DNA from: Perna viridis
Taxonomy: Eukaryota
DNA: 64,000 nucleotides
NCBI GenBank assembly: GCA_037379345.1
Contig: CM074511.1
Coordinates: forward strand, 52,892,862-52,956,861
Reading direction: 5' to 3'
The position numbers were made by a program. Positions 48,001 through 57,000 of the stretch are shown here, piece by piece. The first letter of the stretch is position 1, and each line of letters opens with the position of its first letter.

Positions 48001-51000
48001 AACACCTGGTTGACCATGTCTATAACTTACCTTTCCACACTCTGACACTGTTTCTAACACCTGGTTGACCATGTCCATAACTTACCTTTCCACACTCTGA
48101 CACTGTTTCTAACACCTGGTTGACCATGTGTATAACTTACCTTTCCATACTCTGACACTGTTTCTAACACCTGGTTGATATTGTTCAGGGCATCTTTCCA
48201 AGTATAATTAGATATATTTATATCATTGCCACTATACAGGAACCTAAACAAAGGATCACATGGACTGTAATTTGGGTCCACATCACACATGAATGAGAAG
48301 TTTAGTCCCGCTGCTTGAGTGATATAGTTGTTCAGTGCAGCTGAGGCAAAACCAGGTATGAGAGATGAGATATCAAATCCCCCAACAGTTTGGCCTGTCA
48401 GGATATCTGATATATTAAATCCTGGGAGTGATCCATTACAGGCTGTTTGTCTAAATGTATGCCAGACATCATCACAAACCTCAGAGCATGTAAAGTCCTG
48501 AAATGAAGTAAAAGCTGTGAAAGAACTTTTAATCTGGACTATCAGTTTTCATTGGTACACATTTTTTCTCTAAAAATCTAATTTGTATGAAATCATGGCT
48601 ATTCACCATGAAAGGGCTAACCAACCAAAGAATGTTACAAAAAAATAGGGACTAGTACTCCATGAGAACATTTTGCAGATTTTTCAAATAATTAAGCCAA
48701 TGTTTCTGAAACTAATTAAAAAACAAAATATCATAGTCACCACAGGCTTACAGTTCATACTTTAACAATATGACATTAATACATGCACTACATATAGGTG
48801 ACCTTCGTTTATAAAAACTAAATAATGTTAATGATAGGTTACCCTCAATAGTTGAATATTTGGATCTGTATCAAGGAAATTGAACAAAGAATCAGATTCT
48901 ACCCTCCATGTATTAGCAAGATCTACAATGCTGAACAGATCATCAAATGTCTTGTTTGCCTAAAAAATAAATAATTTATAATGATAGAGCACAGTTTTAA
49001 TAACAATTTTTGATAGTTATTGTAAATATATAAATTTTCACATTGAACTAATTTTTGCTATTTTAATGGTGGACTGAAAAGCATGAAAAATAGTACTTTA
49101 CACTAATAATTTTTTACACCATTAAGATTGATACCCGCAAATATGGTCACTTGACAGAATCCACAAAAATTAGCAGCTGCAAAAATTAATAAGTTTATAG
49201 AAATTACGAGGAATAGGGTTGGTTTACCCTTGATTGAATTACCCTTAACTCATTAACTTAATGGACAATTGACAAAGAGATATGAATTTTCTATCAGACA
49301 TACACTCAAGTACCTATGAAATGATAAAAAGGTTGAATCTCCTTGTTATTTGTCCAGTGATCTACCTATGACAGTTCATCAAGTTGTAATCATTCAATAA
49401 AGGGAAGACCAACTTTATTCCCTAAAGTCGACTACATTTTAAATCACTGTGATATCCAGTCATATTATATTTATACACATGTAATTCCTTTTTATGTTTA
49501 CACCACATTTAAGGAAGTACACCTAAGGTAAGGGACATAACTCTTGAAATCAGTGATACGTTTGTATCATATTCAATTTCACCAACGCCTTTCAATCAGT
49601 CCAAGTTACTTTGATGCTTACATGAGATTGATGTAAAATGCTGAATACAAATGTTTACATGATTCGTAAGAGTTGTGTCCCTTACTCTAGGTCTACCTCC
49701 TCAAAACACTGTCATTTCTTGTTCATGAACGAGAATTAAGATTAAAATTTACAATAAAAGACAATATGGTATTGAGAAATTGACCATACAAGCCTGCTCA
49801 TTACGATTCCTGTCATTTTCAGTTAAAATTATAGGGATGAAGAGACAGCGAAGTCCTACATATGTAGATCCTCTGTCAAAACATGAATATTTCAAAATTT
49901 TTCTGTCCGAATTGACGTATGAAGTAAGTGTGTGATTGTTTGAACTTTTAACACAGATACCCATCAGTGGGAAAATATCACATATTCCCGCAGGACACGA
50001 CATCAGCAATATAACAATATAATGGTGCATTTATTAATCAAGTTAAATGTAACTTGAATACAAATAGCTCCGTCCCTAATAAGAAAAGCCTAAAATTAAA
50101 TTAAAGTTCAAGACAGAACAGGTAAATTTAAACAAAGGAGCCAAAATTTTTAATGAAATATAATAAAACCACAGCAATGAAATAACATACCATTCTAATA
50201 ACTTCATTTACTGTTGTACTGTTAGGAGCATATGGAATCTTTCCTTCAACAAGAGGCTCCAGTTGTCTCCATATTACTTGTCCAAAGTCAGTTGACTCTA
50301 AATTATCCACTAAATCTGCACAAACTGTTCCTAAAAAAAAAAACCAAAAAAAAACCACAATATTGTCATGACTTCTGAAATATAGAACAGGGTATATGTT
50401 ATTTACTCTACTCTAAACAATGTATGTTACTTACTTTACTCTGAACAGAGTATTTGTTATTTATTGTACTCTAAACAGAGTATTTGTTACTTACTCTACT
50501 CTAAACAGAGTATTTGTTACTTACTCTACTATGAACAGAGTATTTGTTACTTACTCTACTATGAACAGAGTATATGTTACTTACTCTACTATGAACAGAG
50601 TATATGTTACTTACTTTTGCACTGAACTCCTGGATTTCCTATAATTTCCTTTCTGTTACCACAATTATGGCAATGTGGGTGTTTTCCTCGTTTAGATTTA
50701 TACTGACCAGCTGGACATGGCTTACAAGTGTTACCAGCAGAATCATAGAAATATCCTCTATCACAATACACTGCAGTAAAAAAGATTAAAGTACTAATTA
50801 ATACTCTTTATCACAGTACACTGAGTACACTGAAGTAGAAACAGATTATAGTTCATACAATAATGACATTTTTCTTTTATAAATTTGGCAATAATCCACC
50901 CAGTTGTTTCAGAGGAGAATATTGCTAAAAAAAAAGTTAACAATGACAAATGAGACCACAGATGCCAAGTGATGACAAAAGCTTGAATGGCCTTTGGCCT

Positions 51001-54000: not shown

Positions 54001-57000
54001 ATCAGTTGGCTTATAATATCCCTGGTCACATGGTTCACAATTGTCATCCCCCTCTTTACCAGCACTACAGGTAACTACAAGATTTTAAAGCAATATTATA
54101 GCGTTCTATAGTTATCAAAATATGAAGTCTATATTTTTTTTTCCTCAAATATATTACTGTCAGAGTAATCACAGTCATTTTTTAACCAGTAAGTTCTATT
54201 AGGCCTTTTGCAATAGGAAAAAATGTGATACAAATAACAAAACTTTAAAAAAAATCTGTTGATTATTTTAGAATTTCATAAACATTAACATGTTATTTAT
54301 TCTGCGTATAAGTTCACCTTGGCAATCTTTTTCTTTAGTAGAAGCAGTTGAATTAGTTTTCAGATTATCTTCACAAGGCTTGCAGGATCCTTGATTAGCT
54401 TGTGGTTGGTATGTTCCAACAGGACAAGGGAGACATCCTTGTCCAGAAATATAGTATCCAGGTCTACACTGAGTTGTTCCCCCTCGACCACAAACCAAGG
54501 ATTGGACAGTTTGTGTGACATTCACATTTGTTCCCATGGTAGCCCCTTGAACTTGGCTAAACAGATTCTCAACTGCTGTAATAATTCCTTGGTCACGTTG
54601 ATAAATTGCATACAGCTTCATGAACTGAAACAAAACATCATTTTATTTGCATACAAAAAGAAAAAGAACAAGCCTAAAACACACTTTAACAAGGCAGGGA
54701 TACATGCTAAATGTAAAGTATTGGTTTTCAAACTGAATATGAAACAAAACTGTTACTAGCAAAGAAGACTTCAAATAATATAAAATCTATTCAGAATTTC
54801 AATCATCCCAGTTTATGCTACTTAATGAGAATCCATATTTTTGAAAATTTTATGAAAATGGTCCATAAAATTCTGAATTTCTAACATACTAGTAGGTAAG
54901 TAGAAATTCACATTCATAACTTGTAGTCTTAGTTCGTAGAATCAGTTAAGGTAAACAACTCTCCAATTTTATCCCATATCTTATGAAAATGACCACAGTA
55001 AAAATGACTTAGTATATTAAGTTTAAAAAGGGAATGTTAACCACATTTATCTATAAAAGGGAATGTTCACCACATTTATCTATAAAAGGGAATGTTAACC
55101 ACATTTATCTATAGATAGTTATTCTGGTAATACTAGTTTCTAGGTTAAAGCGAACTAAACTGTAAATTTATATGAACCATGATAAGTTTAGAAAAGCTTT
55201 GGTTGAGTTGTTCTCTACTTTACATATTGAAACTAAAACTGCAAATGATGGACATGTAAAACCAAATCCATTTGGATGGAATTAAAATGAAGAATAAAGT
55301 ATTACAAAATGTATATTGTTGACTTTTTAAGATGCTGGCAACAAAAACTTTTTTAAAACAGCTAGAAATCTAACAGTGTTAAAACCAAGTTTTCATTTTC
55401 AACAATGTTTCATTGTATGCAACTGAAGTATAAATACCACAGGAAAAAATACTCTGAAAATCAAACATTTAAGTATGAATATTACTAAGTTTATCTTCTG
55501 TATCTATATTTTCCCATGATTTCAATGTACAAACACTCCTAAGAACTGGGTTTTTCTATTTCAATGTACAAACACTCCTAAGGACTGGGTTTTTCTTGTA
55601 TCTTTTAATGAACTTACATCCTGATAAAGTTGCAGGAACTGGAGTGGATCTGATAGTATTGATTGTCCAGCATTTCTTTCAATATAATTCAAAATCTGTA
55701 AAACATACATCATATTTATCTTGGAAATAGTTAAAAAAAAAAAATGAAAACTGAAAGTGAACAAAGAGTTAGAAAAATGCATATGCCTTCTACACTTTTC
55801 ATCAAAAGAAACATTGACTTCCTATATCCACAGTTCACTTAAGAAAAAAACCGAAGGTAATATGTCTATATTACTGTCAACTTTCATAATAGTGTAAATG
55901 CATCCAGTATATCCCATTGAACAAATGTATTTTTCCCATAATAGTAAACAAGAAGTAGTTGTAAGTGCTGCATACCAAATATCAAGTGATTATGATCAGT
56001 AGTCCCTGAGAATAATGTTAAGAAAGTTCTGGTTACAGATGAAATGACAGATAAAGCTAAAACAGTATACCCCCTTTCTTCTAAGCAGGAGTATAATAAA
56101 AATAATGAAGAAGGTTGGGAAAGGTGCAGAAAAAAATTGACCGGTTGTGTACTGATATACAGTGAGCGAAAGTGATGGGAAATATTAATCAATTAAACCT
56201 AACTAAACTGTTTTGAGAAATTTCATAATTTACCCAACCTTAAATAAAACTCTAATTTGTACTTAATGATATATATGACTTTCTGAAAAATTTCATGTTG
56301 TGTAAGAAAATTGCATTATGACCAAAAACTTACCTTCAATCAGAAACTTGTGAAGTAACCACAAAAAATTGAATTTCAGAAGTAACAAGCTTTCTGGATA
56401 GATAATTTTTTTGTCCATCCTCTCATAGACCAAATTTTGTAATGTGACTGTGAAATTATCATCATTTTTTAGGATTTAATCATTAAATTTTGATACTAAA
56501 ATTAAACTACAAGGAGTGACAGTTAAATTTTTTCAGTCAATATCAAATAAACCTCAAACCCTTTGGTTCACACTAAAAAATAACCTGCTACACAGGATAT
56601 TTACTGTGCACCACTTAATTGAGGTAATTTTTCATAGACAGAAAAATAGAGCAGTAATTCATTAAATACATGTACTAATAAATTACCACCTCATACATGT
56701 ACTTATTACTCCTCCAATGACTAACATTTCTACATTGATGTTTACCTCATTTCTAGCATTAGGATCATTGAGTGCTGACAACAGTAGAGCATATAACTGG
56801 TCAAACTGAGGTGAAGTGAGGTTACAGATCTGGTTCTGTACAGTCTCTCGTACACTGTCTGATGGAATGATCAGAGTTCGGTTTAAGTACCCTTGTTCAC
56901 ATAGGAGATTCTGTAAGTCCTGAGCTGTCATATTGGTTCCAGGAATCTGACCTCCAGCTGAAGAATTAGTTCTGTTTACTGAGACACTGCATTCTCCAAA

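What the first reader, a model, noticed from the sequence alone, without database searches (positions are those of the whole stretch)
50615..54480. The Cys-rich modules alternate A-B-A-B-A-B plus one divergent unit on symmetrical phase 1-1 exons
Seen: repeats 1, 3 and 5 share C.PG(Y/T)YI.G..C..C..G.YQ....Q..C..C....T....S....C (exons for 3 and 5 are both 156 nt). Repeats 2, 4 and 6 share C..G.EG...C..C....YK.T.....C..C......RT.C (144, 138, 147 nt). Repeat 7 is divergent. All six stand-alone exons are multiples of 3 and phase 1-1. Knowledge: phase 1-1 is the classic signature of shuffled extracellular modules. Inference: an A-B exon pair was triplicated long ago, and any exon can be skipped in frame, so stalk length may vary by isoform or species.
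Basis: partly seen in the sequence, partly recalled or inferred. Interest (0 to 1): 0.65.

Follow-up and report, generated by a model that had tools for sequence, protein, structure and literature searches.

The report
Cys-rich repeat arm in mussel ABCA
Seven small cysteine-rich modules of two alternating subtypes, all but the first on its own in-frame exon, are grafted into an outer loop of a mussel lipid-transporter gene, which makes this a tidy lineage-specific case of exon shuffling and not a variable-length stalk.

Summary
On the minus strand, six stand-alone exons (144, 156, 138, 156, 147 and 156 nt) and the 3' half of a 307-nt exon each encode one six-Cys unit. All seven bounding introns are phase 1. 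All seven units pass Pfam's cut-off for PF07699 Ephrin_rec_like. Units 1/3/5 and 2/4/6 form two subtypes. Unit 7 fits neither.

The array is not a stalk. It lies inside the first extracellular domain of an ABCA1-like transporter, in a loop between two conserved cysteines. That loop has 43-67 residues in six non-bivalve relatives.

Five Mytilus species carry the same seven-unit array. A Mytilus paralogue has five units and lacks exactly the pair 3-4. None of the 150 nearest ABCA relatives has any unit, including a scallop and two gastropods.

None of 11 full-length RefSeq isoforms skips a unit. So pairwise change between gene copies is supported, but isoform or species variation is not.

The fusion appears in automatic annotation. 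My literature searches found no description of it.

The parts
54318..54624 (-). Exon carrying 51 codons of ABCA ECD1 sequence (ending ...VCGRGGTT) fused without an intron to unit R1 (A type; unit is 54471-54319). Phase 0 in, phase 1 out.
   Evidence: boundaries, phases. (PF07699, 44.1 bits, profile 1-48). (68% identity to M. coruscus ABCA1 over the whole exon).
53931..54074 (-). Exon for unit R2 (B type), 144 nt, phase 1-1.
   Evidence: (PF07699, 27.4 bits). (best match is unit 2 of M. edulis, 62.5%).
52981..53136 (-). Exon for unit R3 (A type), 156 nt, phase 1-1.
   Evidence: (44.0 bits). (66.7% to unit 3).
52359..52496 (-). Exon for unit R4 (B type), 138 nt, phase 1-1.
   Evidence: (27.9 bits). 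(65% to Mytilus unit 4 over 43 columns).
51648..51803 (-). Exon for unit R5 (A type), 156 nt, phase 1-1.
   Evidence: (41.8 bits). (67.3% to unit 5).
51193..51339 (-). Exon for unit R6 (B type), 147 nt, phase 1-1.
   Evidence: (26.6 bits). (72.9% to unit 6).
50615..50770 (-). Exon for unit R7 (divergent, neither A nor B), 156 nt, phase 1-1.
   Evidence: (27.3 bits). (equal fit to A and B profiles). (own clade, 96/88).
50191..50330 (-). First ECD1 exon after the array (R-TVCADLVDNLES...), with a phase-1 acceptor. It aligns to human ABCA1 354-395 and ABCA4 369-411.
   Evidence: (TIGR01257 positions 368-412).
16756..60712 (-). The host gene, an ABCA1-like full transporter. It is colinear with M. 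edulis isoform X1/X2 residues 27 to the end. The first coding exon was not found in the window.
   Evidence: colinear tblastn; per-region identity 61-91%; TIGR01257, PF12698.
50385..50615 (.). 30-nt minisatellite (7.8 copies) that begins at the R7 donor. Units carry GTAAGT-like donors.

Best explanation
What it is (shown). The region encodes seven tandem Ephrin_rec_like (PF07699) modules. These are six-cysteine units of the TNFR / Eph-receptor Cys-rich kind. Six of them each sit on one symmetric phase 1-1 exon. The first is fused to the upstream exon.

Where it sits (shown). The array is grafted into the first extracellular domain (ECD1) of an ABCA1-like lipid transporter of a mytilid-type mussel. 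It fills the loop between two conserved cysteines. By residue count these correspond to human ABCA1 C309 and C355. That is the segment which in ABCA4 forms the membrane-proximal, flexible 'S-loop'.

How it arose (inferred). Class 1-1 modules entered a phase-1 intron in that loop and multiplied in two-unit A-B blocks before the mytilid lineages sampled here split. One Mytilus gene copy later lost the middle pair R3-R4 in frame.

What it does (inferred, not tested). The array is constitutively included. It forms a disulfide-laddered, partly N-glycosylated extracellular arm that adds a rigid binding or spacing surface to the ectodomain, for example for an extracellular lipid acceptor or another partner. 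The transport core is left unchanged.
For: Units:
- 7 of 7 pass the PF07699 gathering score.
- Each has six Cys.
- The nearest solved relatives are Mst1 (E 6.5e-20), ELAPOR1, thyroglobulin, Eph-receptor CRDs and TNFRSF members.

Host gene:
- Flanking exons map colinearly to TIGR01257 positions 50-99 upstream and 368-412, 550-648 downstream.
- The whole gene is colinear with M. edulis ABCA1-like.
- That orthologue has PF12698 x2, PF00005 x2 and PF23321 plus PF07699.

Continuity of frame:
- R1 shares one exon with ECD1 sequence.
- The R7 phase-1 donor meets a phase-1 acceptor, giving K-R-T-V-C-A-D-L as in Mytilus.

Site of insertion:
- The exon after the array aligns to ABCA1 354-395 and ABCA4 369-411.
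- The conserved Cys anchors bracket 43-67 Cys-free residues in urchin, amphioxus, lamprey, fish, tick and sea spider. They bracket about 196 residues in scallop, 357 (42 Cys) in the seven-unit mussel gene and 259 (30 Cys) in the paralogue.
- The ABCA1 C75-C309 disulfide is described in a passage of PMC13607428.
- ABCA4 S-loop residues 339-348 lie near the membrane (passages of PMC8219669).

Constraint:
- The array is 64% identical to M. edulis, like the rest of ECD1 (61-72%).
- All seven units keep the six-Cys pattern in the window and in four Mytilus orthologues.

Pair-wise evolution.

Alternation is not generic: among 61 unrelated array proteins the longest strictly alternating run is 5 (one protein), and 58 of 61 have runs of 3 or fewer.

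Rigidity by analogy: the Mst1 tandem of such domains has a disulfide ladder spaced about 11 A (passages of PMC10602792).

Glycosylation: sequons occur only in A units.
Against: - No RNA evidence was available. The Mytilus proteins are predicted models.
- The B-side tree is weak (R2+R6 56/100; R4+R6 not rejected, p-AU 0.37), so pair-wise duplication is congruent with the data but not proven.
- R1 has no 5' intron, which a pure insertion of 1-1 exons into an intron does not predict.
- No donor gene was found.
- The N-terminal junction could not be mapped on a solved structure by sequence (0 hits). The equivalence to C309 rests on a multiple alignment and residue counting.
- 'Mytilid-only' rests on one non-mytilid bivalve and two gastropods among the 20 named of 150 representatives clustered at 50% identity.
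- The fold, shape and function of the arm are untested.
Confidence: 0.75

Rival explanations
1. One reading: the units are cassette exons, so arm length varies by isoform or by species through in-frame skipping.
For: All six stand-alone exons are 3n and phase 1-1, so any of them can be removed in frame. Symmetric modules are held to be prone to skipping (Patthy 2019, PMC6335736, passages). A paralogue has five units instead of seven.
Against: None of 11 full-length RefSeq isoforms in four Mytilus species lacks a unit, and all have units at residues 352-699. Both paralogue isoforms have five, so that state belongs to the gene and not to an isoform. The window and five Mytilus species all have seven. 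The older models with odd counts differ off exon boundaries and are annotation artefacts. A reviewer comment in the same paper notes that most skipped exons avoid folded domains. Only 15 of the 18 cluster members were listed.
Confidence: 0.12
2. Block-of-four model. Instead of one pair copied twice, a four-unit block R1-R4 was duplicated, giving R5-R6-R7 (plus a lost eighth unit). R5, R6 and R7 would then be copies of R1, R2 and R3.
For: R1+R5 are sisters at 96/98. R2+R6 pair in the best tree. R3+R7 held together costs only 0.02 log-likelihood units (p-AU 0.49). In the 26-unit tree R7 sat next to R3 (78/73).
Against: Raw similarity does not place R7 nearer R3 (BLOSUM 46, against 70 and 73 to R1 and R5). 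R7 fits the A and B profiles equally. R2+R6 support is weak (56/100). There are only 49 alignment columns.
Confidence: 0.2
3. The array was captured whole from another gene that already had the A-B alternation, with no duplication inside the ABCA gene.
For: B-like units exist in other array proteins: 105 B calls against 606 A calls in 61 proteins. One scallop protein, P0012, has an alternating run of 5.
Against: No protein among the 61 has a run of 6 or more. None is more than about 35% identical to the array. The search was word-indexed and limited to proteins of 1037-3303 residues.
Confidence: 0.12
4. Annotation artefact: the units belong to a separate gene nested in an ABCA intron and are wrongly joined in the models.
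For: All Mytilus proteins used are computational predictions. I saw no transcript data.
Against: R1 is in the same exon and frame as ECD1 sequence that is homologous to scallop ECD1 up to the 'VCGR' motif. The phases match at both ends. There is no start or stop codon within the unit exons. The same layout appears in the window and in independent annotations of five species.
Confidence: 0.03

Closest known systems
ABCA1 / ABCA4 / ABCA7 full transporters (solved: 7tbw, 5xjy, 7lkp, 8edw)
   Same: Two TMD-NBD halves, an R1 regulatory domain, and a large ECD1 with the conserved Cys anchors. The exon after the array aligns to ABCA1 354-395.
   Different: Vertebrate and other non-bivalve relatives have 43-67 Cys-free residues in this loop. 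The mussel gene has 357 residues made of seven six-Cys modules.
Scallop (Argopecten irradians) ABCA1-like, P0131
   Same: It is the nearest relative found (57% over the C-terminal half). It is colinear on both sides of the loop and shares the 'VCGR' junction motif.
   Different: It has no PF07699. At the same loop it carries about 180-196 residues of Gly/Ser/Pro-rich low-complexity repeats.
Ephrin_rec_like (PF07699) arrays: Chlamydomonas Mst1, ELAPOR1, thyroglobulin, Eph-receptor Cys-rich region
   Same: The same six-Cys unit. Mst1 is the best PDB match (E 6.5e-20). Its tandem forms a disulfide ladder (PMC10602792 passages).
   Different: Those arrays are parts of filaments, tethers or receptor ectodomains, not inserts in a transporter loop. 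In 61 other array proteins the units are mostly A-like without sustained alternation.
ABCA13 / ABCA12-type enlarged ECD1
   Same: These are ABCA proteins whose length is greatly increased. ABCA13 hits here are about 1,900-4,600 residues long. That the extra length lies in ECD1 is recalled, not tested here.
   Different: Their precomputed Pfam lists show no PF07699 (0 of 45 non-Mytilus ABCA hits).
Class 1-1 exon-shuffled extracellular modules (Patthy)
   Same: One domain per exon, phase 1-1, and a phase-1 host intron at the 3' side (PMC6335736 passages).
   Different: The first unit has no 5' intron. The host is a polytopic transporter and not a typical mosaic secreted or single-pass protein.

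Membership tests
Pfam PF07699 Ephrin_rec_like | Score at or above the curated gathering cut-off (23.1 bits) | tested here: met
   7 of 7 units pass: 44.1, 27.4, 44.0, 27.9, 41.8, 26.6 and 27.3 bits. B units and R7 match only part of the profile (positions 5-40 or 1-34 of 48).
Pfam PF07699 Ephrin_rec_like | Six-cysteine scaffold C..G...C..C..G.Y...C..C...C | tested here: met
   There are six Cys in each of the 7 units, with invariant C, G and Y columns.
Pfam PF07699 Ephrin_rec_like | Disulfide-bonded beta-hairpin fold as in the Eph-receptor CRD or Mst1 | not testable with these tools
   Structure prediction did not accept jobs. Only sequence similarity to solved chains is available.
ABCA subfamily full transporter (ABCA1/4/7-like) | Two halves, each with an ABC-2 type TMD and an NBD, plus the ABCA R1 domain | tested here: met
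   The window is colinear with P0120/P0002 over TMD1, NBD1, ECD2, TMD2 and NBD2. P0002 has PF12698 x2, PF00005 x2 and PF23321. A window exon hits PF12698.
ABCA subfamily full transporter (ABCA1/4/7-like) | Large ECD1 between TM1 and TM2 with conserved cysteines | tested here: met
   TIGR01257 positions 50-99, 368-412 and 550-648 are hit in order. The Cys anchors are conserved in 9 of 9 aligned sequences.
ABCA subfamily full transporter (ABCA1/4/7-like) | ATP-driven lipid transport | not testable with these tools
   This needs an assay.
Exon-shuffled class 1-1 module | Domain borders coincide with exon borders, and both flanking introns are phase 1 | tested here: met
   This holds for R2-R7. 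The background is 8 of 23 other introns in phase 1.
Exon-shuffled class 1-1 module | Inserted into a phase-1 intron of the host that exists in relatives without the insert | not tested
   No genome of a scallop, gastropod or vertebrate could be read here. The 3' host junction is phase 1. The 5' junction has no intron.
Alternatively spliced cassette exons | Transcripts or isoforms that differ by whole unit exons | tested here: not met
   None of 11 full-length RefSeq isoforms and neither of 2 paralogue isoforms differs by a unit. The odd older models are artefacts. Only annotated proteins were examined, not reads.

The most novel reading that the evidence does not exclude
In mytilid mussels an ABCA1-type lipid transporter has had its substrate-side 'S-loop' segment replaced by a rigid, glycosylated array of Cys-rich modules. 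The array works as a receptor-like arm that docks a specific extracellular partner (a lipid acceptor, a matrix component or a microbial ligand). Its reach is set in steps of one A-B pair, seven units in one gene copy and five in the other. Because both ends are anchored in one loop, the odd-numbered, type-symmetric order A-B-A-B-A-B-A may fold back on itself as a hairpin with the middle unit at the tip.
Probability: 0.15. Interest if true: 0.65.

Novelty: new variant of a known kind. Interest (0 to 1): 0.4.

Why it matters
ABCA ectodomains are poorly understood, and the S-loop region is the part of ECD1 that touches the substrate in ABCA4. A natural, conserved replacement of that loop by a 350-residue module array shows how much this site tolerates. 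It also gives a natural handle for asking what the ectodomain does.

For gene evolution it is a clean, datable example of class 1-1 exon shuffling into a polytopic transporter. It has a two-unit super-repeat and an in-frame pair loss in a paralogue.

It does not bear on any long-standing open question, and automatic annotation already shows the domain combination.

Tried and rejected
- Structure prediction of the array (alignment A3) was not accepted three times. I gave it up, so the shape of the arm is unknown.
- Placing the window's exons as separate rows in a long alignment misplaced them, so I dropped them.
- Mapping the N-terminal junction on the PDB by sequence gave 0 hits at E up to 10. 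The scallop protein's alignment to ABCA1 skips this region.
- The search for residual intron similarity between units found only a 30-nt minisatellite and one chance pair.
- No donor gene with A-B alternation was found among 61 proteins.
- Older Mytilus models with 5 or 6 units (P0003, P0123) were considered as evidence of skipping. I rejected them because the differences do not follow exon boundaries.
- Separate A and B trees cannot give a branching order without a root.
- The protein-atlas look-alike search gave only generic ABC-2 clusters, with scores of 0.86 or lower.
- Rfam gave 0 matches. Pfam gave nothing for the 749-aa ORF.
- Literature: 0 papers for 'ABCA' + 'ephrin receptor-like' + 'extracellular domain'. 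There was 1 unrelated paper for 'Ephrin_rec_like' + 'ABC'. Of the 13 papers for 'ABCA1' + 'Mytilus' + 'ABC transporter', none of the 12 listed concerns this architecture by title or abstract start. The same is true of the 6 papers on genome-wide ABC surveys that mention bivalves.
- The ELAPOR1 paper's passages say nothing specific about these units.

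
Full report
**Scope.** The window is AT-rich (about 32% G+C), has no N and encodes mollusc genes. It is not human. Where a full-length sequence was needed I used public, named Mytilus proteins that the searches returned.

**What is in the sequence.** The coding strand is the minus strand.
- Stop-to-stop frames and splice-site inspection give seven exons with AG acceptors behind polypyrimidine tracts and gtaagt/gtgagt-type donors.
- R1 is 54624-54318 (307 nt). Its first 51 codons are non-repeat sequence.
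- R2 is 54074-53931 (144 nt), R3 53136-52981 (156), R4 52496-52359 (138), R5 51803-51648 (156), R6 51339-51193 (147) and R7 50770-50615 (156).
- R2-R7 are multiples of three and phase 1-1.
- A separate protein-guided spliced alignment reproduced the same boundaries.

**Is it more than chance?**
- In the 30 introns that the script resolved, all 7 introns bounding the units are phase 1. The script stopped at the first junction it could not place, near residue 1715 of the guide protein.
- Of the other 23 introns, 8 are phase 1, 10 are phase 0 and 5 are phase 2. Seven in a row at 8/23 each is about 6e-4 by my arithmetic.
- For the A/B claim, the odd/even split is the best of the 10 possible 3+3 partitions of R1-R6. 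Its within-minus-between identity is 19.2 points against 3.7 for the next, and its BLOSUM margin is 61 against 9.6.
- Cys spacings are 10-2-13-2-16 in all three A units, 8/9-2-13-2-12/13 in the B units and 12-2-14-2-13 in R7.
- The A and B profiles match each other only over the central 28 columns (hhalign probability 92%, E 6e-7).
- R7 fits both equally (86.6% and 85.2%).

**What the units are.**
- All seven pass Pfam's gathering score for PF07699 Ephrin_rec_like. A units score 42-44 bits over the whole profile. B units and R7 score about 27 bits over part of it.
- A profile of the seven finds the Chlamydomonas mastigoneme protein Mst1 best among solved structures (E 6.5e-20). Next come ELAPOR1, thyroglobulin, Eph-receptor Cys-rich regions and TNF-receptor family members.
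- In Mst1 the tandem of such domains carries a ladder of disulfides about 11 A apart, which the authors link to robustness (PMC10602792, passages read).

**What gene they are in.**
- The same strand carries unmistakable ABCA exons on both sides.
- Single exons map in order onto the ABCA4 'rim protein' model TIGR01257. Positions 50-99 lie upstream of the array. Positions 368-412, 550-590 and 582-648 lie downstream.
- Another exon hits PF12698.
- The R1 exon alone retrieves ABCA1 of Mytilus coruscus at 68% identity over its full length, non-repeat half included.
- A local tblastn of M. edulis ABCA1-like isoforms shows colinearity from 60712 down to 16756. Every unit's best match is its positional counterpart.
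- Identity to M. edulis is 64% in the array and 61-72% in the rest of ECD1. It is 77-79% in the TMDs and 87-91% in the NBDs.
- R7's phase-1 donor meets a phase-1 acceptor at 50330 and reads K-R-T-V-C-A-D-L as in Mytilus.
- So the units are part of the transporter's reading frame and are under the same constraint as the surrounding ectodomain.

**Where exactly the array is inserted.**
- The exon after the array aligns to human ABCA1 354-395 and ABCA4 369-411.
- I aligned mussel, paralogue, scallop, urchin, amphioxus, lamprey, fish, tick and sea-spider proteins. Two conserved cysteines bracket a loop with 43-67 residues and no Cys in the six non-bivalves.
- The same loop has about 196 residues in the scallop, 357 residues with 42 Cys in the seven-unit mussel gene and 259 residues with 30 Cys in the paralogue.
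- Human ABCA1 has a C75-C309 disulfide in ECD1 that is tied to apoA-I binding (PMC13607428, introduction passage citing Hozoji 2009).
- With C355 downstream that leaves 45 residues, which fits the range. So I infer that the anchors are the C309 and C355 equivalents.
- The ABCA4 'S-loop' (W339, Y340, Y345, F348) contacts the substrate next to the membrane, is flexible and was unresolved in ABCA1 (PMC8219669, passages). By numbering it falls inside this loop.
- The supplementary figures of that paper, which show the loop, were not available to me.
- The N-terminal junction itself found no PDB match.

**Distribution.**
- With the array region of the M. coruscus protein as query, 66 proteins matched. 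Only five were ABCA proteins, all from Mytilus.
- With the ECD1 segment after the array, 50 ABCA proteins matched. Again only the five Mytilus ones list PF07699, and 45 do not.
- An exhaustive phmmer of the repeat-free C-terminal half of the M. edulis gene returned 324,602 hits. None of the best 150 contains a unit by profile or by pattern.
- The 20 of these that I named include a scallop (the closest, 57%), the gastropods Nucella and Lottia, echinoderms, vertebrates, arthropods, a rotifer, Hydra and Capsaspora.
- The scallop protein is colinear on both sides (residues 1-347 and 528-902). In between it has Gly/Ser/Pro-rich low-complexity repeats and no PF07699.
- The library is clustered at 50% identity and only one non-mytilid bivalve is visible. 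So 'mytilid lineage only' is the best reading, not a proven one.
No other mollusc locus could be read.

**How the alternation arose.**
- In a tree of 26 units the B units separate from A plus R7 at 97/100.
- With 40 units from the window, four Mytilus species and the paralogue, B is a clade at 97/95. A is separated at 87/69, and R7 is its own clade at 96/88.
- In the separate A and B trees five of the six positional units form their own clade across species. R2 does not, because the window's R2 sits on a long branch. All units therefore predate the split between the window species and Mytilus.
- Third-codon identity between same-type units (29-51%) is no higher than between types (28-49%). No intron similarity remains. 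The duplications are old.
- R1+R5 are sisters (96/98). R2+R6 pair in the best tree, but weakly (56/100), and R4+R6 is not rejected (p-AU 0.37).
- This is congruent with copying in A-B pairs. It also fits a four-unit block duplication in which R7 would be a copy of R3 (held together at a cost of 0.02 log-likelihood units, p-AU 0.49). The data cannot choose between these.
- The alternation is not a general habit of the family. In 61 unrelated array proteins I called 606 A-like units, 105 B-like, 131 ambiguous and 525 weak. The longest strictly alternating run is 5 in one protein, 4 in two and 3 or fewer in 58. The A profile is closer to the family consensus, which favours A calls.

**The variable-length idea.** I examined 23 Mytilus ABCA models.
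- Sixteen have seven units. These include all 11 full-length RefSeq isoforms of M. edulis, M. trossulus, M. californianus and M. galloprovincialis, always at residues 352-699, and all four M. coruscus models.
- Both isoforms of a second M. galloprovincialis gene have five units. In the trees these group with R1, R2, R5, R6 and R7. So that copy lacks exactly the pair R3-R4 and keeps the alternation.
- Because R3 branches outside R1+R5, and the paralogue has both R1 and R5, a loss is the simpler reading (inference).
- The remaining five models are fragments, an N-terminally truncated isoform that starts inside R4, or models that differ off exon boundaries.
- Only 15 of the 18 members of the main cluster were listed.
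- The annotated X1/X2 difference maps to two alternative copies of another exon.
- So in-frame removal of a pair has happened once between gene copies. I found no sign of isoform or orthologue variation. Transcript reads were not available.

**How it probably works.**
- Shown: an extracellular-domain location by homology, a six-Cys scaffold conserved in every unit and species examined, N-glycosylation sequons only in A units, and constraint equal to the rest of ECD1.
- Inferred: the array forms a stiff, disulfide-rich arm that projects from the S-loop position near the base of the ectodomain and offers a new interaction surface.
- It is anchored at both ends, five residues from each conserved cysteine, so it is a side arm and not a stalk.
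- Whether it is a rod, a horseshoe or a hairpin is unknown, because the structure tool took no jobs.

**Novelty.** The domain combination is visible in automatic Pfam annotation of the Mytilus proteins. My literature searches found no paper that describes it. I rate it a new variant of known kinds: a known module family in a known transporter family at an unusual site.

Noticed in passing
window 44736-44560 and 44514-44350 (minus strand): Two tandem copies of the ECD1 exon encoding 'YWRPGPR...PYPCYI.DK' (177 and 165 nt, both phase 2-2). Both have AG/GT sites and they are separated by only 45 nt. M. edulis isoform X1 matches copy 1 best (80.6% against 65.6%), and X2 matches copy 2 best (75.4% against 68.7%). 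The 12-nt length difference equals the 4-residue X1/X2 difference. This looks like a conserved pair of mutually exclusive exons. That so short an intron could enforce exclusivity is my recollection of the steric mechanism, not something tested here.
   Followed up: partly
window 50385-50615, 46636-48178, 45183-45568, 42478-42822, 38135-38478: All five intronic minisatellites found between 36 and 51 kb (periods 30, 55, 71, 43 and 57 nt) start at, overlap, or lie within 42 nt downstream of the 3' end of an exon of the ABCA gene. Offsets are 0, -37, +42, +4 and -54 nt. Several units contain a GTAAGT-like donor, so they are tandem copies of exon ends and 5' splice sites. The cause and any effect on splicing are unknown.
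   Followed up: partly
P0131 (Argopecten irradians ABCA1-like) residues about 348-527: At the same ECD1 loop the scallop orthologue has about 180 residues of repeated Gly/Ser/Pro-rich low-complexity sequence. This may mean the loop is a general hot spot for insertions, or it may be a gene-model read-through of an intronic repeat.
   Followed up: partly
window 7525-9771 (+ strand): A single open frame of 749 codons, rich in Ser, Lys and Asn, lies downstream of the ABCA gene on the other strand. It has no Pfam family at E up to 0.01.
   Followed up: partly
window about 2000-4950 and 20590-21320: Tandem-repeat tracts that stay open in several frames on both strands. Examples are 'GLIHQELYISQ...' or 'PGVSNLGLCIA...' units at 2-5 kb and 'RLILKDRLILKG...' units at 20.6-21.3 kb. 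The second tract lies between C-terminal exons of the ABCA gene. They are probably non-coding satellites. The Pfam hits were only low-complexity noise.
   Followed up: no
P0114 (M. trossulus ABCA1-like isoform X4): An annotated isoform of 2267 residues starts at a Met inside unit R4. It would lack TM1 and the first half of ECD1. It may be an alternative-promoter model or an artefact.
   Followed up: no
window 60713-64000: The first coding exon of the ABCA gene (about 21-26 residues, 'MGFGTQL...' in Mytilus) could not be found in the window, even with a permissive short-query tblastn. The gene's 5' end may lie beyond the window.
   Followed up: partly
window units R1, R3, R5: N-glycosylation sequons occur only in the A units (R1 NST; R3 NCS and NQT; R5 NTT). 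There are none in R2, R4, R6 or R7.
   Followed up: no
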